DNA of 64,000 bases, taken from positions 14,381-78,380 of IMG/VR virus record IMGVR_UViG_3300033821_000019. The stretch is one strand, 5' to 3'. Made by a program: the position numbers and the translations under genes. Numbering within the stretch: the first letter of the stretch is position 1; every line of letters starts with the position of its first letter. Under the pieces are notes generated by a model, which worked only from the letters and a program-made list of their open reading frames with translations, did not search any database and had not been told where the DNA came from. Below, in pieces: positions 39,120 through 55,687 of the stretch. The stretch comes from a virus.

Positions 39120-39668
39120 TTATTTTTTGCCCTCAGATGGTTCATTAACAATGCAGTAAGGACACACAAGCTTACCATTCAAAGGACCATGTGTTATCTT
39201 GATATAATGCATAAAACACTTAGGACAGTTATAGTCATACTGTTGACCATATACCCCGCGCGTAATGAACCAAAAATCATTATTTTCTATGACTTTATCT
39301 TCTAAATCTTCATTGCATGAAGCGGCCACTAAAGCCAAAGCCTCTGGTGGTGATTTGTGTTGAAAATGTGGCACTTCCCAAAAAGGATGATTGTTGCATG
39401 TAGAAATGAGGTAATAGTATCCTCTTTGAATAATGAACGTATGATAGTTACAAGACGGGAAAGACAATTGAGTGGTTGACTTAATTATACCGTCCTTGAT
39501 TTGCTGTTTAATTATTGCTTTTAGCTCTTCGTTCTGTCCATCTTCTTCATGTCCATCACGAAAAGGAATCATAGCTAAAGCCACATCTGCTGTGCTCTTG
39601 TAGAACTCCAAAGGCACAGAAAATGAAGTGGAACTGCTGTTACTGACAAAACCACGCCTGATTTTCAT
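39120..39668 (-). CDS. FVSNSS-family protein 1 (C-terminal Zn ribbon)
   Basis: MKIRRGFVSNSSSTSF; GGAGG RBS. Confidence 0.8.
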   Translation of the reverse strand: MKIRRGFVSNSSSTSFSVPLEFYKSTADVALAMIPFRDGHEEDGQNEELKAIIKQQIKDGIIKSTTQLSFPSCNYHTFIIQRGYYYLISTCNNHPFWEVPHFQHKSPPEALALVAASCNEDLEDKVIENNDFWFITRGVYGQQYDYNCPKCFMHYIKITHGPLNGKLVCPYCIVNEPSEGKK

Positions 39669-39678
39669 ACTGTCCTCC

Positions 39679-40209
39679 CTAGTGATGGTTAAGTCTGAAA
39701 TGCACCAATTCCTGAAAAATGTCACCATGTTCCATAAAAGAATTTAATTCACAACCATCGTTGTCAGAGTAATGAAACTTGAAGAAGCGATTAAAGTCAT
39801 ATACTTTGAGTAGCTGTTTGAATACTGTTTTGGCAACATCATCTCTACATTTGGCACGCTTTTCAAGATATTTCTGCATGGCATTTTGTGTGTCTTGGGC
39901 AAAGTCCCAATCAGGCATAAGACATCTTTCGGTGAATCCATGTTTCACTGCTTCTTCTGAAGGTTCCAACATACCATTTGTCAATTCATCCAAAAGCTCT
40001 TTGCGACTCTTAACCCGGCCTTCTTTCATATCTCTCATGACAACGAAAGCTATCTCTTTTGTAGAGTAAACATTGTTATAGCCAACGTACAATTTATCCC
40101 CAAACAGAAGCCTCTCCATTTCGGCTACTGTTTTAGGAAGCTCTTTTGGGAACACCACCACAAAAGAGCTTGAACTACTATTGCTGACAAAACCGTTTCT
40201 AGTTTTCAT
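39679..40209 (-). CDS. FVSNSS-family protein 2
   Basis: MKTRNGFVSNSSSSSF...MEHGDIF. Confidence 0.8.
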   Translation of the reverse strand: MKTRNGFVSNSSSSSFVVVFPKELPKTVAEMERLLFGDKLYVGYNNVYSTKEIAFVVMRDMKEGRVKSRKELLDELTNGMLEPSEEAVKHGFTERCLMPDWDFAQDTQNAMQKYLEKRAKCRDDVAKTVFKQLLKVYDFNRFFKFHYSDNDGCELNSFMEHGDIFQELVHFRLNHH

Positions 40210-40213
40210 AGCC

Positions 40214-40801
40214 CTAGTGTTTTGAAATCCTTATGTGTGGAATTTTGTTAAAAATTTCGCCATGCTCCATTGTGGCACCCAACTGACCGTCTTCGTCAGC
40301 GTATTCAACTTTATACATATGTTCTAATGGCCACTTCTTCAAAAGCTTGTTGGAAATCTCTTTGGCAAAAGCCGTGTCTTTCTCGTCCACATTTTTCCAA
40401 AACGCTTCTCTCTCTTCTTCTGTTCCATCAGCCACTTCTTCCGTGTCGTATTCAGGCTCTTTTATCTTGCCTAGTACGGGTTCATTCTCTGGCTCATCGC
40501 CAACAACACCATTTTTCAAAATCTCGGCGAGCATTTCAAAAGATGTGATTTTACCGCATTCTCTACTGTGGTCTTTAATTTGTTCACCTTGCAAGTTCCT
40601 AAAAACAATGGCGGCAATTTCCTTGGTAGAGAATTTAATCGCTTCAGAATTAGGATGGTTGTCGTTGTACGGATAATCTATATACAACTGGTCGCCAAAC
40701 AATAGTTCTTCCGTTTCCTTGACGCTCCCCGGCAATTTGGGAAGTACAAGGATGAACGCACTTGAGCTACTGTTGCTGACAAAACCATGCCTCTGTTTCA
40801 T
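40214..40801 (-). CDS. FVSNSS-family protein 3
   Basis: MKQRHGFVSNSSSSAF...MEHGEIFNKIPHIRISKH. Confidence 0.8.
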   Translation of the reverse strand: MKQRHGFVSNSSSSAFILVLPKLPGSVKETEELLFGDQLYIDYPYNDNHPNSEAIKFSTKEIAAIVFRNLQGEQIKDHSRECGKITSFEMLAEILKNGVVGDEPENEPVLGKIKEPEYDTEEVADGTEEEREAFWKNVDEKDTAFAKEISNKLLKKWPLEHMYKVEYADEDGQLGATMEHGEIFNKIPHIRISKH

Positions 40802-40803
40802 GA

Positions 40804-41373
40804 CTAGTGTTTTGAAATCCTTATGTGCGGAATTTTGTTAAAAATTTCGCCATGCTCCATTGTAGAACCCAAATCGCCATCTTCATCAGCATATTCTACA
40901 CGATAAAGGTGCTTCAAAGGCCACTTCTTCAAAATCTTCTTTGCAACTTTGTCAGCAAACTCATCCATAGCCTTGTCATGTTCCTTATATCGTTTGTCTC
41001 TATCTGCATCCGTTTCATTTGGGTCATAATTCCATTCCATTTTAGGTGCTACAATACCTTCATATTTATTTAACCAACCATCCCGCACGATATTTTCCAA
41101 ATCGTGAATAGTCTCTATGTGACCAGCATCATCATGCCTAGAAAGTGGCAAGGCTGGCGGCTTATGTGTGATATCATGAAGAACAATAGCCGCAATCTCC
41201 TTGGTGGAAAACTTCTCGCAAGCAGGATGAAGGTCTTTATACGGATGTTCCACATAAAGCTCGTCGCCAAATAGCAGTTCTTCCATTTCCTTGACAATTT
41301 CCGGTACTTTCGGAAAGACAAGGATGAATGCGCTTGAGCTACTGTTACTGACAAAGCCATGTCGCTGTTTCAT
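40804..41373 (-). CDS. FVSNSS-family protein 4
   Basis: MKQRHGFVSNSSSSAF; close paralog of protein 3. Confidence 0.8.
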   Translation of the reverse strand: MKQRHGFVSNSSSSAFILVFPKVPEIVKEMEELLFGDELYVEHPYKDLHPACEKFSTKEIAAIVLHDITHKPPALPLSRHDDAGHIETIHDLENIVRDGWLNKYEGIVAPKMEWNYDPNETDADRDKRYKEHDKAMDEFADKVAKKILKKWPLKHLYRVEYADEDGDLGSTMEHGEIFNKIPHIRISKH

Positions 41374-41385
41374 TCTTGCAATCCT

Positions 41386-41772
41386 TTAATTCCAAAAAGC
41401 CTTATGACGTAATTTTCTAAAAGCTCCGCTATACCCCTCAAAATTCACCGATTCTGGAACGACTAACCAAAACACTTTTGATTGCCTGTTCTGCTTGAAA
41501 AAGTTCTTGGCTTGCACCATTTGTTCTTTGCGCAACTTCTTATCAGTCATGTCACCACATCCACGCACATAGCTACCACTTTTCACTATCTGGTTAAAAA
41601 TGAGTGCTGCAAACACTTTTGGCGACTCTTTCAAGTCAGTGTGTTCGTTGCATAAATAGTCTTCATCAAAGAGCATGGTTTCAAGCTCTGCAACATTCTC
41701 AGGAGCCTTATTGAAAGCTACCAAAAACGAGCATGAAGAACTATTACTTACGAATCCCGACCTGATTTTCAT
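41386..41772 (-). CDS. FVSNSS-family protein 5
   Basis: MKIRSGFVSNSSSCSF. Confidence 0.8.
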   Translation of the reverse strand: MKIRSGFVSNSSSCSFLVAFNKAPENVAELETMLFDEDYLCNEHTDLKESPKVFAALIFNQIVKSGSYVRGCGDMTDKKLRKEQMVQAKNFFKQNRQSKVFWLVVPESVNFEGYSGAFRKLRHKAFWN

Positions 41773-41998
41773 TTTCCTGTCCCTTGTTTACCGTGTGCTC
41801 CAAATGGTACGGACATACTTCAGGCACACCGTCTGTAATCTTCATCAAACGCATCAAAGCAGCACATGTAATGTTGCCATCAGCCCAACGACGGTCATCC
41901 CGGTCACTCCAACCCCAACGCTGTTTGTTGTGGCACCATACACAAATTTCTTTGGTAATGGCGCTATTCGGAACAAATACCTTATCCTTCTTTGCCAT
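41744..41998 (-). CDS. Small Cys protein, paralog of 55171-55377
   Basis: CVWC...C...VPEVCPYHLEHTVNKG. Confidence 0.65.
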   Translation of the reverse strand: MAKKDKVFVPNSAITKEICVWCHNKQRWGWSDRDDRRWADGNITCAALMRLMKITDGVPEVCPYHLEHTVNKGQENENQVGIRK

Positions 41999-42054
41999 GA
42001 CTATTTGCCTTTCTAAAACTCCCTTCAGTTGTATCGTTAAGGTGCTTCGTTTTT

Positions 42055-42690
42055 CTAAAGTTTCTCTACCGGCACTGATTCGGCTTTCTTCAAGAGCTTC
42101 TGAACGAAAGCCACGTAAGCCATATTATACGCGCCTTTGAAAGCAAGAGCAACTTTCTTCTGTTCTTCGTGGTCTGCCTCTCGATAAATCATGTCTTCCA
42201 CTTCGCCCTCAATTCGTGTTTTATTAGCATGGTCATAATTGCCTTTGCCAGCCACGCCAGTTCCAAGATTTGCAATATGTTGTTTTATCGTTGCCTCAAA
42301 CTTCTGTGGAATGTCTGGCATCCAATGTGGGCATTCAGTATGAGCCACCACGCATTGATTGGTAAAAGTACAATAACCAGTACGACGCTTGCCTTGACGA
42401 CCAACAGAGAATTCAAACATGGCACAGTTATCACAACACCGCGCTACATCAGGGCAGAACTTGTTTTTGGCTGGCTTTTCTGCCATGACAAATGTGCCAA
42501 CGCCGTCTCGTTCATCAACCAAATAGGCGCGTTGACCACACTGAACACACTTGTATTGTCCTTTCGTACTACCCCAACTGTTTTCTTCCGCAAGGAATGT
42601 CTGGCAATTCGGGCAATTAGCAACTTTGCATAAATTCGACTTCATAAGTACATCTGGGAAGAGGACGGAGTTTTCTGGCGTCTGCATCAT
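42055..42690 (-). CDS. Cys-rich multi-zinc-finger protein
   Basis: CPNC, CVQC, CDNC, C...C motifs. Confidence 0.65.
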   Translation of the reverse strand: MMQTPENSVLFPDVLMKSNLCKVANCPNCQTFLAEENSWGSTKGQYKCVQCGQRAYLVDERDGVGTFVMAEKPAKNKFCPDVARCCDNCAMFEFSVGRQGKRRTGYCTFTNQCVVAHTECPHWMPDIPQKFEATIKQHIANLGTGVAGKGNYDHANKTRIEGEVEDMIYREADHEEQKKVALAFKGAYNMAYVAFVQKLLKKAESVPVEKL

Positions 42691-42795
42691 TTATGTAGCA
42701 AGAAGAGCAAAGACAAGCGTTAAAAGGACTGAGTATAAGCTTCCCTTTTTCAGTTTTGACTTTATACCAATTGCTTGTTTCCACGCGCCAATCTC

Positions 42796-43059
42796 CTATT
42801 GTAAATCTTTGAAGGAATCTGGACGCCAATAGACCTTATAGCTGTTCTTGTATTTGCCGCTTTGCTCACATTCATGGAGGCCCGGTTTCTCAATTCGGGA
42901 CACGGTAGCTTGCGCTACAGGAACACCATCGAATTTGAAGTAGAGCGTATCACCGACTTGACACTTTGGCGGGAATCGGAAAGCCCAAAATTCTTCGAAA
43001 CCGATTTGAGGTTCTGTCCAAAAGTGTTCACGGGCGGCTGCTGGTACGTTGATGTTCAT
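42796..43059 (-). CDS. ASCH/PUA-like small protein
   Basis: CQVGDTLYF...VAQATVSRI pattern. Confidence 0.45.
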   Translation of the reverse strand: MNINVPAAAREHFWTEPQIGFEEFWAFRFPPKCQVGDTLYFKFDGVPVAQATVSRIEKPGLHECEQSGKYKNSYKVYWRPDSFKDLQ

Positions 43060-43106
43060 GCTTAAAATATCCCTAATGCTAGAAACATATAGCTTTACAA
43101 GTCATG

Positions 43107-43910
43107 CTATGCTTTCGCCCTTTTCTTCGGTTCAACATAGACCTGATTGAACTTAACCGCAATGCTTCTGAAAAAAGAAGGCAGCGAACTAATCGCCCTC
43201 TTCACATGCACTTCTGGAATGTCTTTATAAAATGCCTCAGCTATACTTCCAGCAATACAGGCTTGTGTATCAGCATCACCACCAAGAGAAACAGCATTCC
43301 TGATTGTGTCTTCAAAATCAGTAGACTCCAAAAAGCAGATAATCGCTTCTGGCACTGACTCTTGACAACTCACCTTGAACGAATAAGTCGGCCTAATGTC
43401 GTCAAGCTTCCGGCTCAAATCATAACCAAAAGTTCCCTCAATATATGTTTTGATGTCATCTTTGGTAGTGCCGGTACGAGCAAGGTAAATAGCAACGGCA
43501 GTAGATTGCGCACCCTTAATACCTTCTGGATGGTCATGGGTTACTTCTGCACTGGCCTTCGCGCCTTTAAGAACTTCATCAAGGCCATCATAAAACCAAC
43601 CAACAGGACTCACACGCATGGCAGAACCATTGCCATAAGAATTGTAAGGCTGTGTCTTACCAGCACGCACCCAATTGCCAAAGGTGCTGCCATAACCGCG
43701 CTTCGGTTCTTTCCTGACGAATTCATGGAAGAGCTTGACCAAAGATTCCTTAGTCATTAAGTGCTGAGCAACGGCAAGCGTCAATACCGTATCATCACTG
43801 AACGTAGGCAGCTTGCGCCTATTGGTTGGGTAGAATTCAAAATCCTTAGATTTGATTGGCTCGAATTCAAAACTTACGCCTGCGATATCCCCTACAATTG
43901 CACCCCACAT
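43107..43910 (-). CDS. ADP-ribosylglycohydrolase (ARH/DraG family)
   Basis: GAIVGD, FSDDT, GNGSAMRVSP, THDHP, GGDADT. Confidence 0.92.
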   Translation of the reverse strand: MWGAIVGDIAGVSFEFEPIKSKDFEFYPTNRRKLPTFSDDTVLTLAVAQHLMTKESLVKLFHEFVRKEPKRGYGSTFGNWVRAGKTQPYNSYGNGSAMRVSPVGWFYDGLDEVLKGAKASAEVTHDHPEGIKGAQSTAVAIYLARTGTTKDDIKTYIEGTFGYDLSRKLDDIRPTYSFKVSCQESVPEAIICFLESTDFEDTIRNAVSLGGDADTQACIAGSIAEAFYKDIPEVHVKRAISSLPSFFRSIAVKFNQVYVEPKKRAKA

Positions 43911-43998
43911 TTTTATCTTCCTTTCTATTCTTCCTTTTCCTGTATCGTTAATTCAACCTACTTGTTCTAATCTTTTTTCAATTTTGTCAACATTAAAA

Positions 43999-44271
43999 TT
44001 ATGCACGCGCCCCTTTGATTGTTTTTCCTTTTTCCAATTCCGGCAAAGGCTTGTTTGGTTTCAACTCAATCTGTTTTTTCTCATGTGAAAGCTGATAGGT
44101 TGCCGTTACGCCATCAAAAATAGGATTCGGCATATATCCATCGTCATCAGTTTCATACCGGTGTTTATAGCAGAACTTAACGTTTTCCGGCAAATCAAAT
44201 TCTTTTCGTAAAGCTTGCGCAACGTCTTCAGTGGTCAGTTCCAATGTTGCTGTTATCTTTTTTGTGCTCAT
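43999..44271 (-). CDS. Hypothetical protein
   Basis: 90-aa ORF with ATGA overlap. Confidence 0.6.
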   Translation of the reverse strand: MSTKKITATLELTTEDVAQALRKEFDLPENVKFCYKHRYETDDDGYMPNPIFDGVTATYQLSHEKKQIELKPNKPLPELEKGKTIKGARA

Positions 44272-44630
44272 ATCTCTTCACCTTCTTCAAATGTCAATGG
44301 CTGCACGGTTACGTTTGGAAATTGTTGTAATGTTTGTTGAATAGTAGCGGCACTAGCACACCACCAAGCGGCATATAGATTATAAGTGTAGTCTATATCC
44401 TGTTCACCAATGAACATATTATCTTTACTTTTATCTCGAAATGTTACCCAAGGACAAGTGCTTGGTCTGTAATGAACTTTGATTTTATGAACCGAATAAT
44501 CATCCTTCTTTTTGAAGAGCTTTTTCGGGTCTGTTTTGTTTGTGTAATGACGACAGAGGTTAATATCCGTAACCGTGAACTTGCCATTCAGGTCAAGATA
44601 CTTGCCTTGATATTTGACTGTGTAAATCAT
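44268..44630 (-). CDS. Hypothetical protein
   Basis: 120-aa ORF with ATGA overlap. Confidence 0.6.
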   Translation of the reverse strand: MIYTVKYQGKYLDLNGKFTVTDINLCRHYTNKTDPKKLFKKKDDYSVHKIKVHYRPSTCPWVTFRDKSKDNMFIGEQDIDYTYNLYAAWWCASAATIQQTLQQFPNVTVQPLTFEEGEEI

Positions 44631-45184
44631 GCCTTGTTTTCTCTAAATTTAACTACTGCTTCACAAAAAGTAATCAATTCTTCATCATTGATACCATTTC
44701 TCGCTAAATTTGCTAGATAAGAAATAAACCTCACATTCCCCTGCAAGTAGCCTTTCTTCGGGTCTATTCTATCCAAACTGGCTCTAAAAATTCTACTAGA
44801 ATTATTTTTCCAACCAGCGGTAGTATTTGGCAATAATAACTGCAAACCCGATATACAACAAATTCCTTTTTGTTTTTCCCAAAGTTCCTTAATATATTCA
44901 AGAGTTAAATCTGTCGTTCCTTTTAGCAAACTTCTTTCTTTAGAAGTTTTCAAAAAATACCTAAATGGAGTAAATTCATCAGACTTATCGTATCCCTTCA
45001 ACAGATTTTTTCCATCATAAACTCGCGTTCCTATGTTTTGACTTTTGCCAGAACAGGAACGACTACAGAAATGTCTTCTTTTAAGAAGTTCACTTCTGCT
45101 GTATTCTATTGAACTTTTTTCAAATATTTTGCGACAACATGCACATTCTACTTTTACTTTCTTTCCTTTAATAGCCATAAGCAC
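44627..45184 (-). CDS. Free-standing HNH-type endonuclease downstream of tmRNA
   Basis: CACC...FCSRSC; QKGICCISG...ASLDRIDPKKGYLQGNVRF. Confidence 0.8.
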   Translation of the reverse strand: MLMAIKGKKVKVECACCRKIFEKSSIEYSRSELLKRRHFCSRSCSGKSQNIGTRVYDGKNLLKGYDKSDEFTPFRYFLKTSKERSLLKGTTDLTLEYIKELWEKQKGICCISGLQLLLPNTTAGWKNNSSRIFRASLDRIDPKKGYLQGNVRFISYLANLARNGINDEELITFCEAVVKFRENKA

Positions 45185-45236
45185 CTCCTTTATGCTTATG
45201 GCTATATAAAAGAATTATGAATGCGACGGGAATTGC

Positions 45237-45919
45237 TGGTGGAGGTGGCGGGACATCTGTATCTTTGCTTTCACAAAGTATGGACTATTCCTTCATCTGG
45301 TTTTTATCCAGAGAGTGGCGTTTATGATTTCAATTCATGCTAATCCTTAAAAGGATTGCTTAAATTTATCCATCCTAGTGACGCCATGATTTTTCAATTT
45401 TAGGCGTTCTATGAGTCTCTAGACCATCGCCATGATTTCTCAATGGTTTTGGTACGGTGTTTTCATGGGTTATTCCTAACCTTTAGAATTCGCCGTTTGA
45501 GCCACTTTTTTGCGCAAGAATCACTTCTTGCCTCGACAATTCCTTATCGAACCCGCGTCCTGAGATACTCCAAAGCAAGCGTCTACACGTTTAGTTGCAG
45601 ATTTGGGACTTCGGTTTGAAACTGGCTCTACAACGGCCATTCTCAATCCTATTCTGATTGTCTCACTTTTCAATTCCTCAGATGGTGGAACTGAAAGCCA
45701 GTCTGATTGGGTACGCAGTTATAGGCATCCAGACGTAATCCCTATAACCACGTCGCTGGTGTTTAGGCAGCGATTTCAGCTACCTTGCGGAAGCTGAAGT
45801 CAACGTGTGTTACGTTGGCAGTTAGTTATTTTCCCCGGTGGATTTTACGTGGCCAACCTGAGAACTCCACGACATGCAGCTACGCCTCTCGGCAATCCAG
45901 TCGAAACCTGTTCACCCCC
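45237..45919 (-). ncRNA. ssrA: tmRNA (exon 1 45919-45546, exon 2 45253-45237; 391 nt spliced); tag ANVTHVDFSFRKVAEIAA at 45819-45763
   Basis: 5' GGGGGTGAACAGGTTTCGAC; spliced 3' GACGCGGGTTCGAT|TCCCGCCACCTCCACCA; tag ORF ends in AA-stop. Confidence 0.95.
45254..45545 (-). mobile_element. ORF-less group I intron (292 nt) in the tmRNA T-loop
   Basis: exon ends in U, intron ends in G; R-like CTAGAGACT and S-like AAGGAATAGTCC (P7 GACT/AGTC); removal restores a perfect T arm. Confidence 0.88.
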
Positions 45920-45981
45920 ATATTCAGCTTCAAAGAACCACTGTCACTTCCTCATTATATCGTCATCTTTGCCAAATTCCA

Positions 45982-48773: not shown

Positions 48774-49103
48774 TTATTTAGTGTTTCCTTGAAGCCACTG
48801 AGTTGCCAGTTTCTCAAGTTCCCCACCCGTAATGATTTCCCGTATGAGCGCATCCACCGGCACCCAATCAGCAGTATACTTCTGCAAAACAGTCACTTCG
48901 TCATCGCCTTCTGCCAATTGTGGAGTTTCAGGAATGTTGCTGAGAACATGAAGGAACACGCCAGTATTGCCATAGATGATATTGGCATTAGCGGAGCATT
49001 CAACCACTATCAAACTTACATTGGGCACCGGGCCATACCACTGTTTGGTCAGACCGAGAATCCACTGCTCGAAAATCTTTTTGGCAAGCTCTTCTTTGTT
49101 CAT
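48774..49103 (-). CDS. Hypothetical protein
   Basis: 109-aa ORF in operon. Confidence 0.6.
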   Translation of the reverse strand: MNKEELAKKIFEQWILGLTKQWYGPVPNVSLIVVECSANANIIYGNTGVFLHVLSNIPETPQLAEGDDEVTVLQKYTADWVPVDALIREIITGGELEKLATQWLQGNTK

Positions 49104-49105
49104 TT

Positions 49106-49441
49106 TTAACCGTCCTTTTTCTTTGGGTAAACTCTTATGTGACCAAGTGGAACTTTTTCATCTATCACAACTTCAGCGTCACGAAGGTAAGAGATAACGC
49201 TTCCGTCTTCTTTCAGTTTACGAACAATGCAATTACCTAGCCAAGTATGAAGAGTGCAAAAGCCGTGACTATTCACCTTGACAACACCAACCTTGTAACC
49301 TCTTTTTTCAAGAGTTTGAAACTTGTCAAGCACGTATTGCAAAATACGTGAAGCAATAGCTTGGTGCGTTGCCAATTCAGCCAAAGCAGTGCTAATTTCG
49401 TCTTTGCTAACGGGGAATTGAGCCGCTTCCATTAAGTTCAT
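49106..49441 (-). CDS. Hypothetical protein
   Basis: 111-aa ORF in operon. Confidence 0.6.
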   Translation of the reverse strand: MNLMEAAQFPVSKDEISTALAELATHQAIASRILQYVLDKFQTLEKRGYKVGVVKVNSHGFCTLHTWLGNCIVRKLKEDGSVISYLRDAEVVIDEKVPLGHIRVYPKKKDG

Positions 49442-49650
49442 TTTTTAACGTCTGCCTCAAAAGCGACACCTAGCTCTTTGGCTCTGTAATAGCAATCTGA
49501 TGAAGCCATGCTAGATATCAGCATAATACCGTTTTTCGTGAGCCTGAATCGCTCTGTACATTCTTCAAACGCGATAGCATAGGTATCGTCACCTATCTTT
49601 GCCGTCTTGGTCGCAAACTCATACTTTTTCTCTGCTTTTTGTGCGGGCAT
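49438..49650 (-). CDS. Hypothetical protein (MPAQKAEKK...)
   Basis: ATG at 49650 with AAGGAG RBS. Confidence 0.55.
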   Translation of the reverse strand: MPAQKAEKKYEFATKTAKIGDDTYAIAFEECTERFRLTKNGIMLISSMASSDCYYRAKELGVAFEADVKK

Positions 49651-49705
49651 TACTTTTCTCCTTGTTGTTATTGTACCAAAAACAAAGGCTGGATTGTAGG
49701 AAAAT

Positions 49706-50047
49706 CTAGCGGCTGTAACTCTCAAATTCCCAACTGAAACTTTTTGAACTACCTCCATCACGCAGAATGTAATCAAACATTCTACCTATCAACGTGCCTT
49801 GTTCATCACCAAAAGTGCAATAGTTGTCTCCCGGCGAAAGGATTTTGTTGTTTTCGGCTGCGGATTTTAACAATTCATCCAAAGTCACTGGCGCTACTTC
49901 GCTATGCACGTATTCACGATTGTACATCTGGACAAGCTGCGGATTTTCTGTGACGAAATCCACCAAGTTTTTAGGCTTGTCAGTAAGATTCATGATGATG
50001 AAATTCGTACTAGACGAATTACTAATGAAGCCGCCATGTGTTTTCAT
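49706..50047 (-). CDS. FVSNSS-family protein 6
   Basis: MKTHGGFISNSSSTNF. Confidence 0.8.
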   Translation of the reverse strand: MKTHGGFISNSSSTNFIIMNLTDKPKNLVDFVTENPQLVQMYNREYVHSEVAPVTLDELLKSAAENNKILSPGDNYCTFGDEQGTLIGRMFDYILRDGGSSKSFSWEFESYSR

Positions 50048-50059
50048 TATTTTTCTCTC

Positions 50060-50416
50060 TTACGATGGAACAACACCGTAGTACAGACCAAATTTATTTT
50101 CATCCCAAAGGCCAACAGGCTCCAATGCTTCTTTCACTTGTTGCATTACGTTTTCTTCAAGCTTAATGAATTCCTTTTCGCAATCAGGAGATTCGTATTC
50201 AGCACCAAAACCAATGTAGGCATTGGTGCCATCGTCCGTAATGACTCGCAACTTACCAAACTTGCTGTTATCCCTGTCAAATCCAACAATTGGTTCTCTA
50301 TATCCGTAATGGTCTGTATTGTTGTTAGTAAACAATTTATCATAATCTACTTTAACGCCAACAATGACGAAAGAAGATGTAGACGAATTACTGACAAAGC
50401 CATTTCGGGTCTTCAT
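50060..50416 (-). CDS. FVSNSS-family protein 7
   Basis: MKTRNGFVSNSSTSSF. Confidence 0.8.
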   Translation of the reverse strand: MKTRNGFVSNSSTSSFVIVGVKVDYDKLFTNNNTDHYGYREPIVGFDRDNSKFGKLRVITDDGTNAYIGFGAEYESPDCEKEFIKLEENVMQQVKEALEPVGLWDENKFGLYYGVVPS

Positions 50417-50428
50417 AATTATCCTTTC

Positions 50429-50791
50429 TTACGAAGGAACAGTGCCGATATAAAGGCCAAACTTAGTCTCATCCCACAAACCAAGAGGCTCCAATGTTTC
50501 CTTCACATTCTGTTTCAATTCATCATCAAGTCTAGTGAAGCTGTTGTTAAACCCTTCTTCTTCTGAGCTTGCCACGTCACCAACACCGATGTAAGCCTTA
50601 TCACCATCGTCAGTAACAACCTGCAACTTTCCAATCTTGCTTCTATCTCTGTCAAATCCGGCAATAGGAGAATCATCGCCATATTTGTCTTTCTTGTTCT
50701 TGTCAAAGAGCTTTTTGTAGCTAATTCTAACACCAACAATGACAAAAGAAGACGAAGACGAATTACTAACAAAGCCATTTCTGGTTTTCAT
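50429..50791 (-). CDS. FVSNSS-family protein 8 (paralog of 7)
   Basis: MKTRNGFVSNSSSSSF. Confidence 0.8.
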   Translation of the reverse strand: MKTRNGFVSNSSSSSFVIVGVRISYKKLFDKNKKDKYGDDSPIAGFDRDRSKIGKLQVVTDDGDKAYIGVGDVASSEEEGFNNSFTRLDDELKQNVKETLEPLGLWDETKFGLYIGTVPS

Positions 50792-50802
50792 TGGCCATCT
50801 CC

Positions 50803-51141
50803 TTAACAATCGTTCACATTGACATATGTGTTTTCTCTGTCTTTTTCAATTTCCTTAACATAATCTTGAAAAGCTCCGGTTGGGCACATATCATTGGGCG
50901 GCTCACAATCTATCTTTGCATCTTCAAAACTGCTTATATTGCCTACAAAACAACTTACGGAAACACATTTTTTACCAAACAAAGTTGCGTATTCAAGTTC
51001 GCCTTGTGTTTCCAGTGCTTTCAAGATAGCAGCAATGTAAGGATGAAGATTTTTTAATGCAGCTTCATGATTTTCAACTGTGGTCAAAATCACGAAACTG
51101 GAACTTGATGAATTGCTAACAAAACCATTTCTTGTCTTCAT
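50803..51141 (-). CDS. FVSNSS-family protein 9
   Basis: MKTRNGFVSNSSSSSF-VILTTVENH. Confidence 0.8.
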   Translation of the reverse strand: MKTRNGFVSNSSSSSFVILTTVENHEAALKNLHPYIAAILKALETQGELEYATLFGKKCVSVSCFVGNISSFEDAKIDCEPPNDMCPTGAFQDYVKEIEKDRENTYVNVNDC

Positions 51142-51174
51142 TTGGTTGCCCTTCCAAAACTGTAGTATGGAGAA

Positions 51175-51528
51175 CTAGCAATCCACGCTAGAGGTGAAAA
51201 CATTTTCTTTGTCTTTCATTACTTCATCACAGTAAACATCAAAAGCTTCCGAAGGGCGCATATCGTCGCCTTCGTCTTCCTTGCTTTTCGGCATTTCACC
51301 ATCTATCCCGACCCTCATGTCTTCAAAACTACTGTAGTTGCCGGTCATGATGGAGTATGAAATGCAGTCCTTGCCAAACGCCCTTGTTTTTTTGCTGCTT
51401 AGTCGGTCAAGCACTGCGATAATGAATGGATGTAGATTCTTCAACGCCTTTTCGTGATTCTCTACTGTGGTCAAAATCATGAAGCTAGAACTTGAGCTAT
51501 TGGAAACAAAACCATTTCTAACTTTCAT
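51175..51528 (-). CDS. FVSNSS-family protein 10
   Basis: MKVRNGFVSNSSSSSF-MILTTVENH. Confidence 0.8.
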   Translation of the reverse strand: MKVRNGFVSNSSSSSFMILTTVENHEKALKNLHPFIIAVLDRLSSKKTRAFGKDCISYSIMTGNYSSFEDMRVGIDGEMPKSKEDEGDDMRPSEAFDVYCDEVMKDKENVFTSSVDC

Positions 51529-51896
51529 CCCAAACCTCCAATGAGAAACTTTTGCTCCAAAAGGTTCTTCTTGTCACGTCTTAGTTCACGGCAGTAATCT
51601 TGAAAGGCTTGCTCCTCTGGCTGCTCATTACAAAATGCAGGCTTATCACCATCAAATTCTACCTCAAGGCTATCAAGAGAACTTTGATAGTCAGAAGTAT
51701 AGCTCACCAAGAAAACAAGAAGCTCTTTGCCGAAAGACTTTTTCTTCTTAACGTCTCCTTCATCCAACATGGCTTTAATAACAGCAGCAACGTATGGATG
51801 AACCTTTTTCATAGCTCGTTTGTGGTTGCCCATTGTAGGGACAACCACAAAACTAGAGCTTGAGCTATTGGAAACGAAGCCTACTCTGGTCTTCAT
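51525..51896 (-). CDS. FVSNSS-family protein 11
   Basis: MKTRVGFVSNSSSSSF. Confidence 0.8.
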   Translation of the reverse strand: MKTRVGFVSNSSSSSFVVVPTMGNHKRAMKKVHPYVAAVIKAMLDEGDVKKKKSFGKELLVFLVSYTSDYQSSLDSLEVEFDGDKPAFCNEQPEEQAFQDYCRELRRDKKNLLEQKFLIGGLG

Positions 51897-51910
51897 GATT
51901 ATCCTGTCGC

Positions 51911-52366
51911 TTAGAAATCAACGCTGGTTTCTACAACGTTCTTTTTATCTTTGCTGACTTCGTGGCAGTAATCATCAAAAGCTTCAGAAGGGCAACCTTC
52001 TTCATCATCTTCGTCCAAATCGCCATCATCATCAATTTCTTCGTCTTCCTCAAGGTCTGCATCGTCTACTTCAACGGCTGTTTCCTCTTCAACAACCTTC
52101 ATCTTGCCCTTCTTATTAGACTTTGTTTCAGGCTCATAGTCAACGTCAAGACCGTCAAATGTTCCACCACCACCATTGTCTGAATAAGTGGAGAACGTAA
52201 TAAGGTCAACACCAAAAGCCTTCTTTTCCTCACCACCCATAGCTTCCAAAACGGCAGCAACGTAAGGCGAGAGTTTCTTTAAGGCCCGTTTGTGATTTTC
52301 CAAAGTAGTCGTAATCACAAAGCTAGAACTACTACTATTACTCACAAAACCATTACGCACTTTCAT
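51911..52366 (-). CDS. FVSNSS-family protein 12 (acidic insertion)
   Basis: MKVRNGFVSNSSSSSF; poly-D/E tract. Confidence 0.8.
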   Translation of the reverse strand: MKVRNGFVSNSSSSSFVITTTLENHKRALKKLSPYVAAVLEAMGGEEKKAFGVDLITFSTYSDNGGGGTFDGLDVDYEPETKSNKKGKMKVVEEETAVEVDDADLEEDEEIDDDGDLDEDDEEGCPSEAFDDYCHEVSKDKKNVVETSVDF

Positions 52367-52473
52367 CTAATTCTCTCCTTAAAAATGATTTTTCTTTCAA
52401 CTTTTCCAATGTCCATTCCACGCCGATATTGTACCATTGACTCCTTTCTGTTTTGACGATTTTTTGAAAATTT

Positions 52474-52833
52474 TTAGCCGTTGTACCAAGCTTCTTCAAC
52501 CGTGCCACACTTGATGCCGTCGCCAAAAAACTTCTTGATTGTGGCTTCAACCGTGGCCTTAAATTGTTTGCCTGTTTCTTCATCACCAATATTGCACCAG
52601 CTTTTACCAATATAAGAGCCGCATTCGCTGCCACCATGAAATTCAAGAGCAGTTCTTTTTGCAAGCTGGTCACAAATGTCAGCCATTCCACAACCCGTCC
52701 TAATCGTTGCATCAGGGAAAGCCTCTTGAATTTTCTTGATGAGTGCTGCTTCATCTGTACCTGACACTTCAGCACCATAAATGCAAAAACTTGAAGTGCT
52801 ACTATTACTTACAAAACCATTACGCACTTTCAT
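52474..52833 (-). CDS. FVSNSS-family protein 13
   Basis: MKVRNGFVSNSSTSSF; GGAGGAG RBS. Confidence 0.8.
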   Translation of the reverse strand: MKVRNGFVSNSSTSSFCIYGAEVSGTDEAALIKKIQEAFPDATIRTGCGMADICDQLAKRTALEFHGGSECGSYIGKSWCNIGDEETGKQFKATVEATIKKFFGDGIKCGTVEEAWYNG

Positions 52834-52995
52834 CTTAGTCTCCTCCACTCTCCATCAATGTATCGTCACGCCTTAATCTTTTTAACACATTGCTAAAATT
52901 TTTCAAGCACAAACACAATTAAAATCAACATAGTTTGTTTATGCTTATAGAAATTACATTTGCGAACCGATTTTTATAGACTTGGGGGTTGGATG

Positions 52996-53913
52996 TTAAC
53001 AACAATCTTGATTCACGCGGCGACACTTAAATCCTTTGCATTGTTTTTGTTTCCCGCTCGCGCAAGATAGCATATTGCCAGAATTCAAATTATGTTTTTT
53101 ACAAAAATCAATAATGCCAATTATAGTTTGTTCGCTCCCGTCTGGAAATGTAATAACGTATGCTTTTCTCGCCTTAATATTTGGAACGCCGTAAAGTACA
53201 TTGTTTTTCCCTCTATACTTTTCTGGATTCTTCTTTGACGCTTTATAGAAAGGATTGTTTTTACCAGAAAGATTGTTTTTTATCCATTCCTTGTGGTCTT
53301 TTTTTGATAGTTTATTAATCCAACATTTTGCTTTTCTTTTTTTCGGAGTTAAAAGTTTTTGATAATTATTTTTTCCAGATATTTTAGAAACCCATTGACT
53401 ATATTCTTCTTCTGTCATTTTCTTACTAAAATGGTTAGCGCCAGACAAATTTGGATTTTCAAAATTTGGATTGCTATTTCCAATACGATGCTTTTCTGAC
53501 CATCTCTTTTTTTCTGTCAAGGACATTTGTTTTAAGTAATGATATTTGCCCGAACTTCCAAAATGGTTATCTCCACCACAAGTCATATTGTACCCCATCT
53601 TACTTTCTGGCGCATAAGAATTATACAATTTTATATAGTAAATTTCCTTATCATTAAGTTTTTGTTGTTGGCATGTTTCAACAACACTCCATTGAAACAT
53701 GTTTAATCCGTATTTGCGTATTGCTCTATGAAAGAGATGGCTAGAAGGTTCACCTTTTCTTGGGAATGCTCTATTCTTATGCTGTCGTATTCTGCTTTTC
53801 AAAGTTCCCAATGTTTGACCAACATAACATTTTCCATTAACAATGTTTTTTGCAATATAAATTATCCCTGTTTTTCTTGTTGCGCCGGGGTTGCATTTCA
53901 TAAAATACTCCAA
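52996..53913 (-). CDS. Free-standing GIY-YIG homing endonuclease with NUMOD-like repeats
   Basis: GIIYIAKN...YVGQT, GYNMTCGG, repeated SGKNNP. Confidence 0.88.
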   Translation of the reverse strand: MEYFMKCNPGATRKTGIIYIAKNIVNGKCYVGQTLGTLKSRIRQHKNRAFPRKGEPSSHLFHRAIRKYGLNMFQWSVVETCQQQKLNDKEIYYIKLYNSYAPESKMGYNMTCGGDNHFGSSGKYHYLKQMSLTEKKRWSEKHRIGNSNPNFENPNLSGANHFSKKMTEEEYSQWVSKISGKNNYQKLLTPKKRKAKCWINKLSKKDHKEWIKNNLSGKNNPFYKASKKNPEKYRGKNNVLYGVPNIKARKAYVITFPDGSEQTIIGIIDFCKKHNLNSGNMLSCASGKQKQCKGFKCRRVNQDCC

Positions 53914-53976
53914 TTAAACAATTACACGTTGTTATAACTATATTATACAACATAACTTAATAAATTTGCTGCAATT

Positions 53977-55089
53977 CTAAATATTAATTTCAGGATAAGT
54001 TGGGCAAAACCTGCAACCATTTTTTTGATTAGAAAGTAAAACATTACGGAACTTTATAACCGCTAGACTATACCACACATCTTTTAGAAAATCATTAGTG
54101 GCAAGAACATCTATACACTCCCATTTTGGGCTGTCTTCGCTGAAACTGCAATGATGATATTCGCCTTTAACATTGATATACGCCGACATTATACTACTCT
54201 CGCAGCTTTCCGAACAAGACTTTAATTCTTTCTTCTTTTTGTCTGAAATATCCATCTGTTCAACGCACTTCTCAAACTTCGGGGCAGAACATGAATCTAG
54301 GCCAAAGTTGATGCCGATAGACATACAATGCTGCACAAGGTCTGCATACTCTTTGTATGACAGAGAATTGTAATGATTAGCAGCGCGGCCCTTCGGCTTT
54401 ACCCCAAGGAACACAACGGCGTTCATGCCCTTCAACCGCTCATCCGTCTTCATGTCCTTCACGACTTCATAAACGAAGGGCAGAGTTTCTTGGCTAACCA
54501 TCAAATGAATGTTGGTCTGTTTGATGCCAAGGTCAACAAATTTCTTGACTGTGTTGTAGCAAACATTTTTGTCAGTCTGGTATGCGCTCACAGCAACGGC
54601 ACCAACTAGCTTGGCGCATTTCTGTGCCATATCATCGTCAAGGTCAATCCCGCTCAAAGTGAAGTTGGGAATGATACCGTTTGCGCGGGTATATTCCATC
54701 ATTTTGAGGAAATCGGGATTCGTCTTCACGCCAGTAATACCAAAAGCAATCTGTGTCAACGCCTTTGGCATCTTATCAAAAATTGCCTTAAACGTCTCAA
54801 AGGTCATATTTGTGGCTGGCGTGCTTTTGTTGGCCTTATAGCAGAAAGGGCAAGCATTAGGACAGCCGTTAATGCTTATCTCTATGTCCAAAATTTCAGG
54901 CCCGATTGGAGAAAACTTCGGGTCATCGTCCTGATTCTTGCCCCACCGCGCAAAAAAGCCAGTTCGTTTGTCAAAAGTATAGTTGTAAGTATCTGACTTG
55001 ACAGCCTTGAACTTATCGTTTTCCTTAACGATAAACTTCTGGCCGTTGATGTTGTAGTGATAGACCTTCGTGTTATCAGTATTCGGCAT
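53977..55089 (-). CDS. Radical SAM enzyme with SPASM/twitch-type C-terminal domain
   Basis: CPNACPFC CxxxCxxC; C-terminal SCES...YINVKG...CSF...CRFCP. Confidence 0.9.
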   Translation of the reverse strand: MPNTDNTKVYHYNINGQKFIVKENDKFKAVKSDTYNYTFDKRTGFFARWGKNQDDDPKFSPIGPEILDIEISINGCPNACPFCYKANKSTPATNMTFETFKAIFDKMPKALTQIAFGITGVKTNPDFLKMMEYTRANGIIPNFTLSGIDLDDDMAQKCAKLVGAVAVSAYQTDKNVCYNTVKKFVDLGIKQTNIHLMVSQETLPFVYEVVKDMKTDERLKGMNAVVFLGVKPKGRAANHYNSLSYKEYADLVQHCMSIGINFGLDSCSAPKFEKCVEQMDISDKKKKELKSCSESCESSIMSAYINVKGEYHHCSFSEDSPKWECIDVLATNDFLKDVWYSLAVIKFRNVLLSNQKNGCRFCPTYPEINI

Positions 55090-55145
55090 TTGTTTTCTTG
55101 CGCCCTTTCAGCCCAATTTAAGCCCGTAGTACAACGCCTAATCAA

Positions 55146-55175
55146 TGTATCGTCAAAAGCCGTAATCTTTCTAAG
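55146..55175 (-). promoter_or_regulatory. Representative of promoter class A, (T/G)AAA-N13-(G/T/A)ACGATACA; 13 sites
   Basis: sites at 23951, 25724, 42030, 43941, 45956, 46501(+), 52859, 55146, 55710, 60971, 61380, 61979, 62961, each shortly upstream of a gene or RNA in the matching orientation. Confidence 0.7.
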
Positions 55176-55377
55176 CCTTGATGCCTTTATTTACCAAATG
55201 TTCCATGGAGTAATCGCACTCTTTAGGAACTGGACCACCTTTCTTTACCCGCTTGCTATGATACGGACAAAACCAAGTTTTGCCAGTAAAAAGTTTCTGG
55301 TCTTCTTCGCCAAAAATCCAATTCATATTGGCGTACATGCTCTTTACACATTTTTGGCAAACAGTTTGGTTAATCAT
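55171..55377 (-). CDS. Small Cys protein, paralog of 41744-41998
   Basis: CQKC...C...VPKECDYSMEHLVNKG. Confidence 0.65.
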   Translation of the reverse strand: MINQTVCQKCVKSMYANMNWIFGEEDQKLFTGKTWFCPYHSKRVKKGGPVPKECDYSMEHLVNKGIKA

Positions 55378-55387
55378 GCGTCACCTT

Positions 55388-55687
55388 TTAACCATCACAC
55401 TCATAGAAATAGTCTTCCGGTTTTAATCCTATGGCTTGTAAGAATTTTTCCATTCCAAAATTATCCATTATCGTATAGCCTTCGATGGTAAAAGGTGTCT
55501 CTTTAATGTTTTCCCACCTATCGCCCAAGAAGTCGTCGTGGTTCCCAAAAGGATGCCATTTCAAGACTGTTAAAGCATATTCGGCATGATTCATAATGGC
55601 TTTGAACTGCAATGGGTTCAATGCTTTCTTTTGAATAACAAAAGAAGCTGAACTACTATTGCTGACAAAACCTTGCCGGTGCTTCAT
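55388..55687 (-). CDS. FVSNSS-family protein 14
   Basis: MKHRQGFVSNSSSASF; GGGAG RBS. Confidence 0.8.
   Translation of the reverse strand: MKHRQGFVSNSSSASFVIQKKALNPLQFKAIMNHAEYALTVLKWHPFGNHDDFLGDRWENIKETPFTIEGYTIMDNFGMEKFLQAIGLKPEDYFYECDG

What the first reader, a model, noticed from the sequence alone, without database searches (positions are those of the whole stretch)
39120..55687. Fourteen FVSNSS-leader proteins arranged around, and co-promoted with, a radical SAM/SPASM enzyme
Seen: 14 genes of about 100-195 aa begin MKxRxGF(V/I)SNSS(S/T)xxF. They form two tandem arrays (5 genes at 39120-41772, 8 at 49706-52833) plus a singleton (55388-55687), and their bodies fall into several apparently unrelated subfamilies. 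Ser codons vary (AGC/AGT/TCA/TCC/TCG), so conservation is at the protein level. The rSAM gene (53977-55089) lies between array 2 and the singleton. The same GACGATACA promoter motif heads array 1 (42030), array 2 (52859), the rSAM (55146) and the singleton (55710). Established: SPASM-type rSAM enzymes often modify peptides or proteins recognised by a conserved leader or motif, including Ser/Cys-to-formylglycine maturases and RiPP cross-linkers. Inference: this is a phage-encoded post-translational maturation system in which one enzyme acts on a Ser-rich N-terminal tag carried by a diversified set of effectors. Alternatives are autoprocessing at N-S or S-S, or a shared docking strand. I know of no described function for this motif.
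Basis: partly seen in the sequence, partly recalled or inferred. Interest (0 to 1): 0.92.

Follow-up and report, generated by a model that had tools for sequence, protein, structure and literature searches.

The report
Phage radical-SAM enzyme, fourteen tagged clients
A large phage encodes one iron-sulfur radical enzyme and 14 otherwise unrelated small proteins that all begin with the same 16-residue serine-rich tag; the tag travels with this enzyme across many phages and some bacterial immune operons and is predicted to dock in the enzyme's active site, which points to an undescribed system that chemically modifies whole proteins.

Summary
Fourteen minus-strand genes (99-195 aa) start MKxRxGF(V/I)SNSS(S/T)xxF, in arrays of 5 and 8 plus a singleton, around a radical SAM gene (53977-55089).

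The tag defines a very large undescribed family: 25,330 clusters at 50% identity, no Pfam entry, bodies in at least 91 BLAST-unrelated groups. It is linked to this enzyme clade (phrog_7293): 58 of 79 IMG/VR tag loci have the enzyme within 10 kb, and 5 of 10 apparent exceptions have it elsewhere on the contig.

A controlled complex prediction places tag residues 1-20 in the enzyme's cleft (ipSAE 0.85, best control 0.02). A D6/T9 tag variant goes with an enzyme subclade changed in the predicted contact strand.

The same tag-protein and enzyme pair also sits in bacterial SMEK-STAND (Avs2-like) operons, including Agrobacterium tumefaciens pAt.

My best reading is a protein-level maturation system. 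The chemistry is unknown, and a glycyl radical is excluded. The shared promoter motif is generic to this phage.

The scan met the same system earlier on other genomes. I found no paper that describes the tag.

The parts
39120..39668 (-). m01, tag protein (182 aa), singleton body with a C-terminal CPxC...CPYC zinc-ribbon-like end
   Evidence: weak phrog_9188 and phrog_7397 hits
39679..40209 (-). m02, tag protein (176 aa), subfamily A, with C-terminal YSDNDG...EHGDIF...H block
   Evidence: (phrog_7397, 3.7e-12, full length); AF2 pLDDT 91
40214..40801 (-). m03, tag protein (195 aa), subfamily A
40804..41373 (-). m04, tag protein (189 aa), subfamily A, 49% identical to m03
41386..41772 (-). m05, tag protein (128 aa), weakly related to subfamily A over its first ~65 residues
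49706..50047 (-). m06, tag protein (113 aa, tag variant MKTHGGFISNSSSTNF), singleton body
50060..50416 (-). m07, tag protein (118 aa), subfamily B
50429..50791 (-). m08, tag protein (120 aa from the tag's ATG), subfamily B, 56% identical to m07
50803..51141 (-). m09, tag protein (112 aa), subfamily C
51175..51528 (-). m10, tag protein (117 aa), subfamily C
51525..51896 (-). m11, tag protein (123 aa), subfamily C
51911..52366 (-). m12, tag protein (151 aa), subfamily C with an acidic insertion
52474..52833 (-). m13, tag protein (119 aa), singleton body in the window; relatives in 25 other loci
55388..55687 (-). m14, tag protein (99 aa), small ferredoxin-like alpha/beta body; relatives in about 22 other loci
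   Evidence: AF2 pLDDT 82; generic fold matches Z 5-5.7
53977..55089 (-). Radical SAM enzyme (370 aa), phrog_7293. CX3CX2C at C76/C80/C83; four further invariant Cys (C267, C296, C314, C362); conserved N-terminal YNYxF...TGFFxRWG element
   Evidence: predicted tag-binding surface
52859..52867 (-). GACGATACA promoter-class motif, 26 nt upstream of the m13 start (head of array 2)
55146..55154 (-). GACGATACA motif, 57 nt upstream of the rSAM start
55710..55718 (-). GACGATACA motif, 23 nt upstream of the m14 start
42030..42038 (-). Variant AACGATACA, 32 nt upstream of the Cys-rich gene 41744-41998 that leads into array 1

Best explanation
The 14 genes encode client proteins of the phage's radical SAM enzyme, a twitch/SPASM-like member of phrog_7293 with one conserved auxiliary Fe-S cluster. 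The invariant N-terminal tag (M1 K2 x R4 x G6 F7 V8 S9 N10 S11 S12 S S S F16) is the enzyme's docking site and, I infer, its modification site. In the model, residues 2-7 add as a beta-strand onto the enzyme's conserved TGFFxRW strand (residues 43-49). F7 enters the SAM-binding barrel. S9-S15 run along the auxiliary-cluster domain. The enzyme then most likely carries out a radical two-electron oxidation inside the surviving core [FY]-[VI]-[ST]-N-S-S. That would be either an intramolecular cross-link involving F7 and residue 9, or oxidation of a Ser/Thr side chain; both would give -2 Da. The first 10-12 residues are a free tail on a folded body, and SSSF plus the hydrophobic residues forms the body's first strand, so a folded protein could be a substrate. 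The bodies are hyperdiverse and expand by local duplication. That pattern fits host-interaction proteins whose common need is the modified N-terminus. Shown by computation: the tag, its linkage to the enzyme, predicted docking, co-variation, and occurrence in bacterial STAND operons. Inferred: that a covalent modification occurs, its chemistry, and the biological role.
For: Tag conservation: 283 unique tag proteins from 79 phage loci have M1, K2, G6, S9, N10, S11 and S12 at 100%, R4 at 99%, F7 at 98%, V8 at 95%, S15 at 95% and F16 at 97%. The Gly is at position 6 from Met1 in 272 of 283. The bodies fall into 91 BLAST-unrelated components. The tag profile hits 25,330 clusters at 50% identity, and almost all matches start at residue 1. 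Linkage: 58 of 79 loci have a 30-61% identical rSAM within 10 kb, on the same strand in all 48 loci where both could be scored, at a median 878 nt from the nearest member. Only tag genes and the rSAM are conserved across these neighbourhoods. Of 10 negatives, 5 have the enzyme elsewhere on the contig, 4 are fragments 8-31% complete, and 1 complete genome lacks it and has ACG for ATG in its only tag gene. Cultured T4-like phages (KP15, KP27, RB16, RB43, Miller, EC-F2) carry both genes about 20 kb apart: 175 versus 172 of 50,697 records, with matching host names. Docking: ipSAE 0.85, 0.85 and 0.87 against 0.02 for the best of 3 controls. That mark was reached by 58 of 80 solved complexes and 2 of 110 mismatched pairs. 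The runs share at least 86% of contacts, and partner pLDDT is at least 58. The counts hold only roughly, because my own alignments and ligands were used. Contacts are tag residues 1-20 with enzyme residues 43-49, 113-117, 140-144, 162-166, 191-195, 261-267, 296-298 and 314-316, which include invariant residues and aux-cluster Cys. Co-variation: D6/T9 tags go with a separate rSAM subclade altered at 46, 48, 49, 143, 191, 269 and 294. Accessibility: in AF2 models of two unrelated bodies, residues 1-10 have mean pLDDT 55-58 and the first strand starts at residue 13 or 14. Independent context: in 5 bacterial MAG loci from two phyla, and in Agrobacterium tumefaciens Ach5 pAt, a tag protein sits directly upstream of a 25-28% identical rSAM behind a SMEK/STAND (PADLOC Avs2, 1.8e-23) gene.
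Against: No experiment shows a mass change, and the chemistry is a guess. The complex score is the model's own confidence. SAM contacts were not reported, so the abstraction site is unknown. The co-variation rests on a single evolutionary transition. In T4-like phages the genes lie 20 kb apart, and their co-occurrence there is confounded by shared ancestry. The second half of the tag is also the first core strand of each body, so part of its conservation could be structural. One complete genome carries a canonical tag sequence without this enzyme. No RiPP recognition element was detected. Rare members have Met or Leu at position 7, which would not fit an aromatic cross-link.
Confidence: 0.68

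Rival explanations
1. The tag is a docking handle only. The diverse proteins bind the rSAM through the tag as adaptors, regulators or substrate-delivery subunits, and the enzyme acts on another molecule (nucleic acid, nucleotide or host protein) without modifying the tag.
For: The genomic linkage and predicted binding fit binding as well as they fit modification. In the KpAvs2 operon the role of the rSAM Avap1 is unknown, and it is needed against only some phages (PMC11564622).
Against: In the model F7 sits against barrel-lining, SAM-site residues and the tag fills the cleft between the core and the aux-cluster domain, which is where substrates lie in this enzyme group (established knowledge of SPASM/twitch enzymes). 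One enzyme shared by 3-14 different adaptors per genome would be unusual. Absolute invariance of S9-N10-S11-S12 is more than strand pairing needs.
Confidence: 0.14
2. The tag is a targeting or assembly signal unrelated to the enzyme (capsid packaging like T4 internal proteins, degradation, or hetero-oligomerisation through a Ser-rich strand). The rSAM is merely a frequent neighbour in an accessory-gene region.
For: There is precedent for N-terminal address tags on diverse phage proteins (T4 internal proteins; established knowledge). The second half of the tag is a core strand.
Against: Only the rSAM and tag genes are conserved across 79 very divergent neighbourhoods. The pair recurs in bacterial chromosomes and plasmids where no capsid exists. 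Docking was positive with clean controls. Tag and enzyme co-vary. The tag has no Glu-type prohead-protease cleavage site.
Confidence: 0.08
3. The tag proteins are enzymes of one ancient fold. The Ser-rich loop is part of their own active site, together with the C-terminal D/E/H block of subfamily A, and the rSAM works in the same pathway.
For: Subfamily A has invariant D149, E160, H161 and a terminal His alongside the tag, and it is the largest body group (55 of 279).
Against: Only 35 of 283 tag proteins have the C-terminal block. The other bodies are unrelated by BLAST, and one is a generic ferredoxin-like sandwich. None of 103 representative bodies has an enzymatic Pfam domain. The tail is predicted to be disordered in the free protein.
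Confidence: 0.05

Closest known systems
RiPP radical SAM maturases of the SPASM/twitch group with leader-bearing precursor families (sactisynthases, SuiB, CteB, PqqE, MftC; triceptide three-residue cyclophane synthases)
   Same: One rSAM enzyme with a C-terminal auxiliary Fe-S domain sits next to several genes that share a conserved recognition sequence and differ elsewhere. The recognition sequence is predicted to bind as an added beta-strand and to thread between the SAM site and the aux cluster. F7-V8-S9 has the aromatic-X-X layout of triceptide motifs (papers listed; the resemblance itself is from memory).
   Different: The clients are folded proteins of 99-280 aa, not short peptides. The conserved element is the extreme N-terminus itself, at a fixed distance from Met1, and looks like both the recognition and the reaction site. 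No PqqD-like RRE was detected, and no protease or exporter is present. NCBIfam gives only weak sub-threshold hits (NirJ2 30 bits, MftC, PqqE). The system lives in phages.
Anaerobic sulfatase-maturating enzymes (anSME/AtsB) and their sulfatases
   Same: An rSAM with auxiliary clusters modifies a Ser (or Cys) in a short conserved motif near the N-terminus of a full-length protein and can serve several client proteins. The reaction is a two-electron oxidation. (Established knowledge.)
   Different: The tag lacks the (C/S)-x-(P/A)-x-R signature. The clients are not sulfatases and share no fold. Only four C-terminal Cys are conserved, where anSME has two auxiliary clusters. There is no NCBIfam anSME hit.
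KpAvs2 operon accessory genes Avap1 (radical SAM) and Avap2 (DUF6375), Bechon et al. 2024, PMC11564622
   Same: A STAND/NLR-like anti-phage gene is followed by a small protein and an rSAM of unknown role. I found the same layout with a tag protein and a homologue of the window's rSAM (25-28% identity) in 5 MAG loci and in Agrobacterium pAt, and the STAND gene matches PADLOC Avs2.
   Different: The window is a phage with no STAND gene and 14 clients instead of one. The paper does not mention a tag. PF19902 hits neither the window nor the bacterial tag protein. I could not obtain the Avap2 sequence, so whether Avap2 equals the tag protein is unverified.
T4 internal proteins with a shared N-terminal capsid-targeting sequence
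   Same: Diverse, fast-evolving small phage proteins in hyperplastic arrays share a short invariant N-terminal sequence. (Established knowledge.)
   Different: The T4 sequence is cleaved after Glu by the prohead protease and has no enzyme partner of this kind. The present tag has no Glu and is linked to an rSAM, including in bacteria.

Membership tests
Radical SAM superfamily (PF04055) | CX3CX2C cluster motif and a Pfam score above the gathering cut-off | tested here: met
   C76-x3-C80-x2-C83; C76 and C83 are invariant and C80 is at least 90% conserved in 39 homologues. Pfam 31.8 bits against a cut-off of 29.5.
SPASM subfamily (PF13186 / TIGR04085) | Seven-Cys C-terminal domain with CX2CX5CX3C binding two auxiliary clusters | tested here: not met
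   Pfam SPASM scores 15.1 bits, below the 21.5 cut-off. Only C267, C296, C314 and C362 are invariant. There is no CX2CX5CX3C in the sequence. This fits a single-cluster, twitch-like domain better.
anSME / AtsB | Client motif (C/S)-x-(P/A)-x-R, and an enzyme matching anSME models | tested here: not met
   The tag S9-N10-S11-S12-S13 has no Pro/Ala-x-Arg. No anSME model appears among the NCBIfam hits at E<=0.1.
RiPP maturase with RiPP recognition element | PqqD-like winged-helix RRE domain that binds the leader | tested here: inconclusive
   No PqqD/RRE Pfam hit at E<=0.1. The N-terminal 70 residues are a conserved beta-rich element (YNYxF...TGFFxRWG) that the model pairs with the tag. I made no separate structural comparison of this element.
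Triceptide three-residue cyclophane synthases (Xye/Grr/Fxs type) | Aromatic-X-X motif cross-linked from ring to C-beta, and an enzyme in those rSAM-SPASM clades | tested here: inconclusive
   The motif layout is present (F/Y7, V/I8, S/T9), with rare M or L at position 7. The enzyme matches no such NCBIfam model. The cross-link cannot be tested here.
Glycyl radical enzyme plus activase | Strictly invariant Gly followed by an aromatic residue (RVxG[FWY]) as the radical site | tested here: not met
   Position 6 is D, S, C, K, N or A in genuine tag proteins of rSAM-linked loci. The enzyme has a C-terminal auxiliary-cluster domain, and its NrdG hits are only weak (E 0.02-0.06).
KpAvs2-Avap1-Avap2 type operon | Avs2-family STAND gene adjacent to the rSAM and a small DUF6375 protein | tested here: not met
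   The window has no STAND gene and no PF19902 match. The bacterial relatives do have the STAND gene, but their tag protein does not match PF19902 at E<=0.01.
phrog_7397 (tag proteins) and phrog_7293 (rSAM) | Significant HMM match | tested here: met
   phrog_7397 matches m02 and m03 at about 3e-12, and matches the tag region in most other members. phrog_7293 matches the rSAM at 1.5e-85 over its full length. Both are annotated 'unknown function'.
T4-type capsid-targeting sequence | N-terminal roughly 10-residue signal ending in a Glu cleavage site for the prohead protease | tested here: not met
   There is no Glu in tag positions 1-16. The definition of the feature is from established knowledge. 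Virion proteomics cannot be tested here.

The most novel reading that the evidence does not exclude
The rSAM converts the N-terminal tail into a cross-linked or reactive structure. That structure is the common working end of a hyperdiverse repertoire of phage proteins, and the same modified tag is used by bacterial NLR-like (Avs2/SMEK-STAND) immune operons. This would be a previously unknown protein post-translational modification at the centre of phage-host conflict, with phages and defence systems sharing or mimicking each other's tag-plus-enzyme module.
Probability: 0.2. Interest if true: 0.95.

Novelty: new variant of a known kind. Interest (0 to 1): 0.8.

Why it matters
If the enzyme does modify the tag, this would be a new post-translational modification installed on folded proteins rather than peptides. 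It would be used by a family of more than 25,000 sequence clusters that currently has no Pfam entry and no annotation. It would give a first handle on thousands of phage "hypothetical proteins". It would offer a portable 16-residue tag plus enzyme pair for protein engineering. It would also suggest what the unexplained accessory genes of Avs2-type immune operons do. The system can be tested directly, because cultured E. coli and Klebsiella phages (RB16, RB43, KP15, KP27) and Agrobacterium tumefaciens Ach5 carry it.

Tried and rejected
- **Known fold for the bodies.** For m02, Foldseek against the PDB gave a best E of 0.19, and VIA wide search gave Z<=5.1 on the long helix only. For m14 there were only generic ferredoxin-like matches at Z 5-5.7, and nothing at E<=0.001 in BFVD. 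A PDB sequence profile gave nothing below E 0.8.
- **Known domains.** Pfam, NCBIfam and PADLOC on window members found nothing. Pfam on 103 representative bodies gave one marginal Zn-ribbon hit. The ESM Atlas returned only viral hypothetical clusters.
- **A third conserved component.** The two Cys-rich paralogues (41744-41998 and 55171-55377; E 1e-7 to each other) recur only in the closest locus, L005. No other neighbour is conserved.
- **Glycyl-radical idea.** Rejected because position 6 varies.
- **Dedicated promoter.** Rejected: the motif is generic in this phage. The sigma-70 and terminator scan was no better than shuffles.
- **Avap2 identity.** PF19902 finds nothing, and no supplements are held for the paper.
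- **Literature.** Searches for the tag string, phage rSAM/RiPP, Slopekvirus rSAM and Avap1/2 found no description.
- **Nucleotide relatives.** Megablast of the region against cultured phages gave no match.
- **Model coordinates.** These are not exposed, so I could not measure burial or the distance to SAM.

Full report
**Observation.** ORF listing and a six-frame regex scan confirm 14 minus-strand genes whose products begin MKxRxGF(V/I)SNSS(S/T)xxF directly at the start codon. Five lie at 39120-41772, eight at 49706-52833 and one at 55388-55687. The true starts of m01, m08, m13 and m14 are the tag's ATG (39668, 50791, 52833, 55687), not the longer upstream ORF starts. The whole 78,380-nt contig, of which the window is bases 14381-78380, has no further copy. 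Ser codons at the same tag position alternate between AGY and TCN, so the protein is what is conserved. With the first 20 residues removed, the bodies form three groups (m02-m04 with m05 weakly related; m07-m08; m09-m12) and four singletons. The gene at 53977-55089 is a radical SAM enzyme: Pfam 31.8 bits against a cut-off of 29.5, with SPASM below threshold at 15.1 against 21.5. A GIY-YIG endonuclease gene lies between it and array 2.

**Promoter claim.** GACGATACA occurs 8 times exactly against 0.2 expected. It sits 23-57 nt upstream of m13, the rSAM and m14. It also heads unrelated genes. The site at 42030 is a one-mismatch variant in front of a small Cys-rich gene that leads into array 1. 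It marks a promoter class of this phage, not a private regulon.

**What the tag proteins are.** No window member has a Pfam, NCBIfam or PADLOC family. All touch phrog_7397, which is annotated unknown function.
- Metagenomic relatives of m02 show that subfamily A has a second conserved block at the C-terminus, Y(S/G)D(N/E)DG...EHGDIF...H, with His as the last residue.
- That block is present in only 35 of 283 unique tag proteins collected from 79 IMG/VR loci.
- In those 283 proteins M1, K2, G6, S9, N10, S11 and S12 are at 100%, R4 is at 99%, and F7, V8, S15 and F16 are at 95-98%. The Gly is six residues from Met1 in 272 cases.
- Their bodies split into 91 components with no BLAST link at 1e-5, and 64 of these are singletons. 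103 representatives have no meaningful Pfam domain.
- A profile of the tag finds 25,330 clusters at 50% identity among 1.84 billion, nearly all matching from residue 1.
- A few internal matches are two tagged units fused in one called protein.

**Structure.**
- AF2 models of two unrelated bodies are confident: m02 has pLDDT 91.3 and pTM 0.86; m14 has pLDDT 82.3 and pTM 0.74.
- In both, residues 1-10 have mean pLDDT of only 55-58, and the first strand starts at residue 13 or 14.
- m02 has no credible structural neighbour. m14 resembles generic ferredoxin-like sandwiches at Z 5-5.7.
- The tag is therefore a free tail that runs into the first core strand of otherwise different folds. It is not one buried strand of one common fold.

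**Linkage to the enzyme.**
- Of the 79 loci found through the tag family, 58 hold a 30-61% identical homologue of the window's rSAM within 10 kb. In all 48 loci where both could be scored it is on the same strand, at a median 878 nt from the nearest tag gene. Arrays of 3-14 tag genes are the rule.
- Across these neighbourhoods nothing else from the window region is conserved.
- I checked ten apparent exceptions at whole-record level. Five have the enzyme elsewhere on the contig, four are fragments 8-31% complete, and one complete 225-kb genome lacks it.
- The single tag gene of that genome has ACG where all others have ATG, behind an intact Shine-Dalgarno. This is one case, but it fits decay of a client gene without its enzyme.
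- Among 50,697 cultured phage records, 172 carry the enzyme and 175 carry a KP15-type tag protein, with matching host-name profiles: Slopekvirus and Pseudotevenvirus, including RB16, RB43, KP15, KP27 and Miller.
- In KP15 and EC-F2 the genes are about 20 kb apart. That co-occurrence is confounded by common descent.

**The enzyme.**
- Thirty-nine homologues share CX3CX2C (C76, C80, C83) and four more invariant Cys (C267, C296, C314, C362). That is enough for one fully ligated auxiliary cluster, so the domain is twitch/SPASM-like rather than canonical SPASM.
- They also share an N-terminal YNYxF...TGFFxRWG element.
- NCBIfam gives only weak, sub-threshold similarity to NirJ2, the tungsten-cofactor maturase, MftC and PqqE.
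- PHROGs places the enzyme in phrog_7293, annotated unknown function (1.5e-85).

**Docking.** I sent the enzyme alignment, SAM, two 4Fe-4S clusters and residues 1-32 of the m02 alignment to the controlled complex predictor.
- ipSAE was 0.85, 0.85 and 0.87 against 0.02 for the best of three controls. That mark was reached by 58 of 80 solved complexes and 2 of 110 mismatched pairs. The runs share at least 86% of contacts, and partner pLDDT is at least 58.
- The calibration applies only roughly, because my own alignments and ligands were used. The score is the model's confidence, not a measurement.
- The interface is tag residues 1-20. K2-F7 pair with enzyme residues 43-49. F7 lies against residues 113, 140, 142, 163, 164 and 191 at the barrel strand ends. 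The remainder of the tag runs along 261-267, 296-298 and 314-316, next to the auxiliary-cluster Cys.
- This is where substrates lie in SPASM/twitch enzymes (established knowledge).

**Variation and co-variation.**
- Relaxing the regex shows that position 6 can be D, S, C, K, N or A in genuine tags, and that S9 can be T. This excludes a glycyl-radical site and leaves [FY]-[VI]-[ST]-N-S-S as the core.
- The D6/T9 tags belong to loci whose rSAMs form a separate subclade (L033, L045, L047, L074). That subclade is changed exactly in the predicted contact strand (F46 to E or Y; R48 to L in three of the four; W49 to R, H or T) and at positions 143, 191, 269 and 294.
- This is one transition, so it is suggestive only.

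**Bacterial counterpart.** Earlier scan notes pointed to Bechon et al. 2024. I read it. KpAvs2 needs the accessory protein Avap2 (DUF6375) and, against some phages, the rSAM Avap1; both roles are unknown, and no tag is mentioned.
- My own scan of 185,579 species genomes found the strict tag rarely (125 pattern matches, 19 confirmed loci).
- Six of those loci, on large bacterial contigs, have a single 137-aa tag protein directly upstream of a 25-28% identical rSAM.
- Five of the six also have a SMEK_N plus NACHT/STAND gene that matches PADLOC Avs2 (1.8e-23), and five have a conserved 128-aa ORF. In L089 integrases flank the unit.
- The same four-gene unit is annotated on Agrobacterium tumefaciens Ach5 plasmid pAt. 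Its tag protein starts MKLKMDFVSNSSSTSF.
- PF19902 matches neither the window nor the bacterial tag protein, so whether Avap2 equals the tag protein remains unverified.

**Interpretation.** The most economical reading is that the tag is the recognition and reaction site of the rSAM, and that the system matures whole proteins. I put this at about 0.68. The chemistry is open. A two-electron oxidation (an F7-centred cross-link, or Ser/Thr oxidation) is my preferred guess, by analogy with auxiliary-cluster rSAMs. The rivals are docking without modification (0.14), an unrelated targeting signal (0.08) and a shared active-site loop (0.05). The biological role is unknown. Three features suggest involvement in phage-host conflict: the hyperdiverse bodies, their local duplication, and the presence of the module in NLR-like immune operons.

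**Novelty.** I found no paper describing the tag or this enzyme-client pairing. The scan has met the same system on other genomes, and those follow-ups reached similar conclusions; they are not independent evidence. The logic resembles RiPP and anSME maturation, so I class it as a new variant of a known kind. It has unusual reach and is directly testable in cultured phages.

Noticed in passing
window 41744-41998 and 55171-55377 (minus strand): Two small Cys-rich paralogues (84 and 68 aa; BLASTP E 1e-7) share CxxC...CPYH/C.Y..EHxVNKG. One is co-transcribed ahead of array 1, the other lies between m14 and the rSAM promoter. Relatives appear only in the closest locus, L005, so they are not a general part of the system. 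They may be Zn- or Fe-binding helpers.
   Followed up: partly
window 52996-53913 (minus strand): A GIY-YIG / NUMOD-like homing endonuclease gene sits immediately downstream of the rSAM, between it and array 2 (Pfam GIY-YIG 1.6e-7).
   Followed up: no
L029/L082, L081, L024, L028, L039, L040, L071 (IMG/VR loci): In several related phages the rSAM homologue aligns in two to four separated pieces with 0.3-3 kb between them. The gene is evidently often split or invaded (intron, intein or endonuclease insertion).
   Followed up: no
L044 9997-10672 (IMG/VR 3300029288_000001, complete 224,826-bp genome): This is the only complete genome checked that lacks this rSAM. Its single tag gene has ACG in place of the ATG start codon, behind an intact Shine-Dalgarno sequence.
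   Followed up: partly
proteins P0052-P0061 from the global search: Some called proteins contain two complete tagged units in one frame, with the internal tag preceded by its own Met or Val. These are either real fusions or read-through or recoded stops between tandem genes.
   Followed up: no
window 56246-58210 (minus strand): The dUTPase is in two pieces with intein-like junctions (...GTVD|C and HN|CSYRGE). A 358-aa Zn-ribbon-rich endonuclease-like ORF (56518-57594) lies between them.
   Followed up: no
window 42055-42690 (minus strand): A 211-aa Cys-rich protein with several CxxC pairs and no Pfam hit sits just upstream of the array 1 operon.
   Followed up: no
L089 7612-7998 and L106 5273-5638: A conserved 121-128-aa ORF with no known family lies between the STAND gene and the tag protein in the bacterial operons (34-57% identity across 5 loci). 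It has no counterpart in the phage window.
   Followed up: partly
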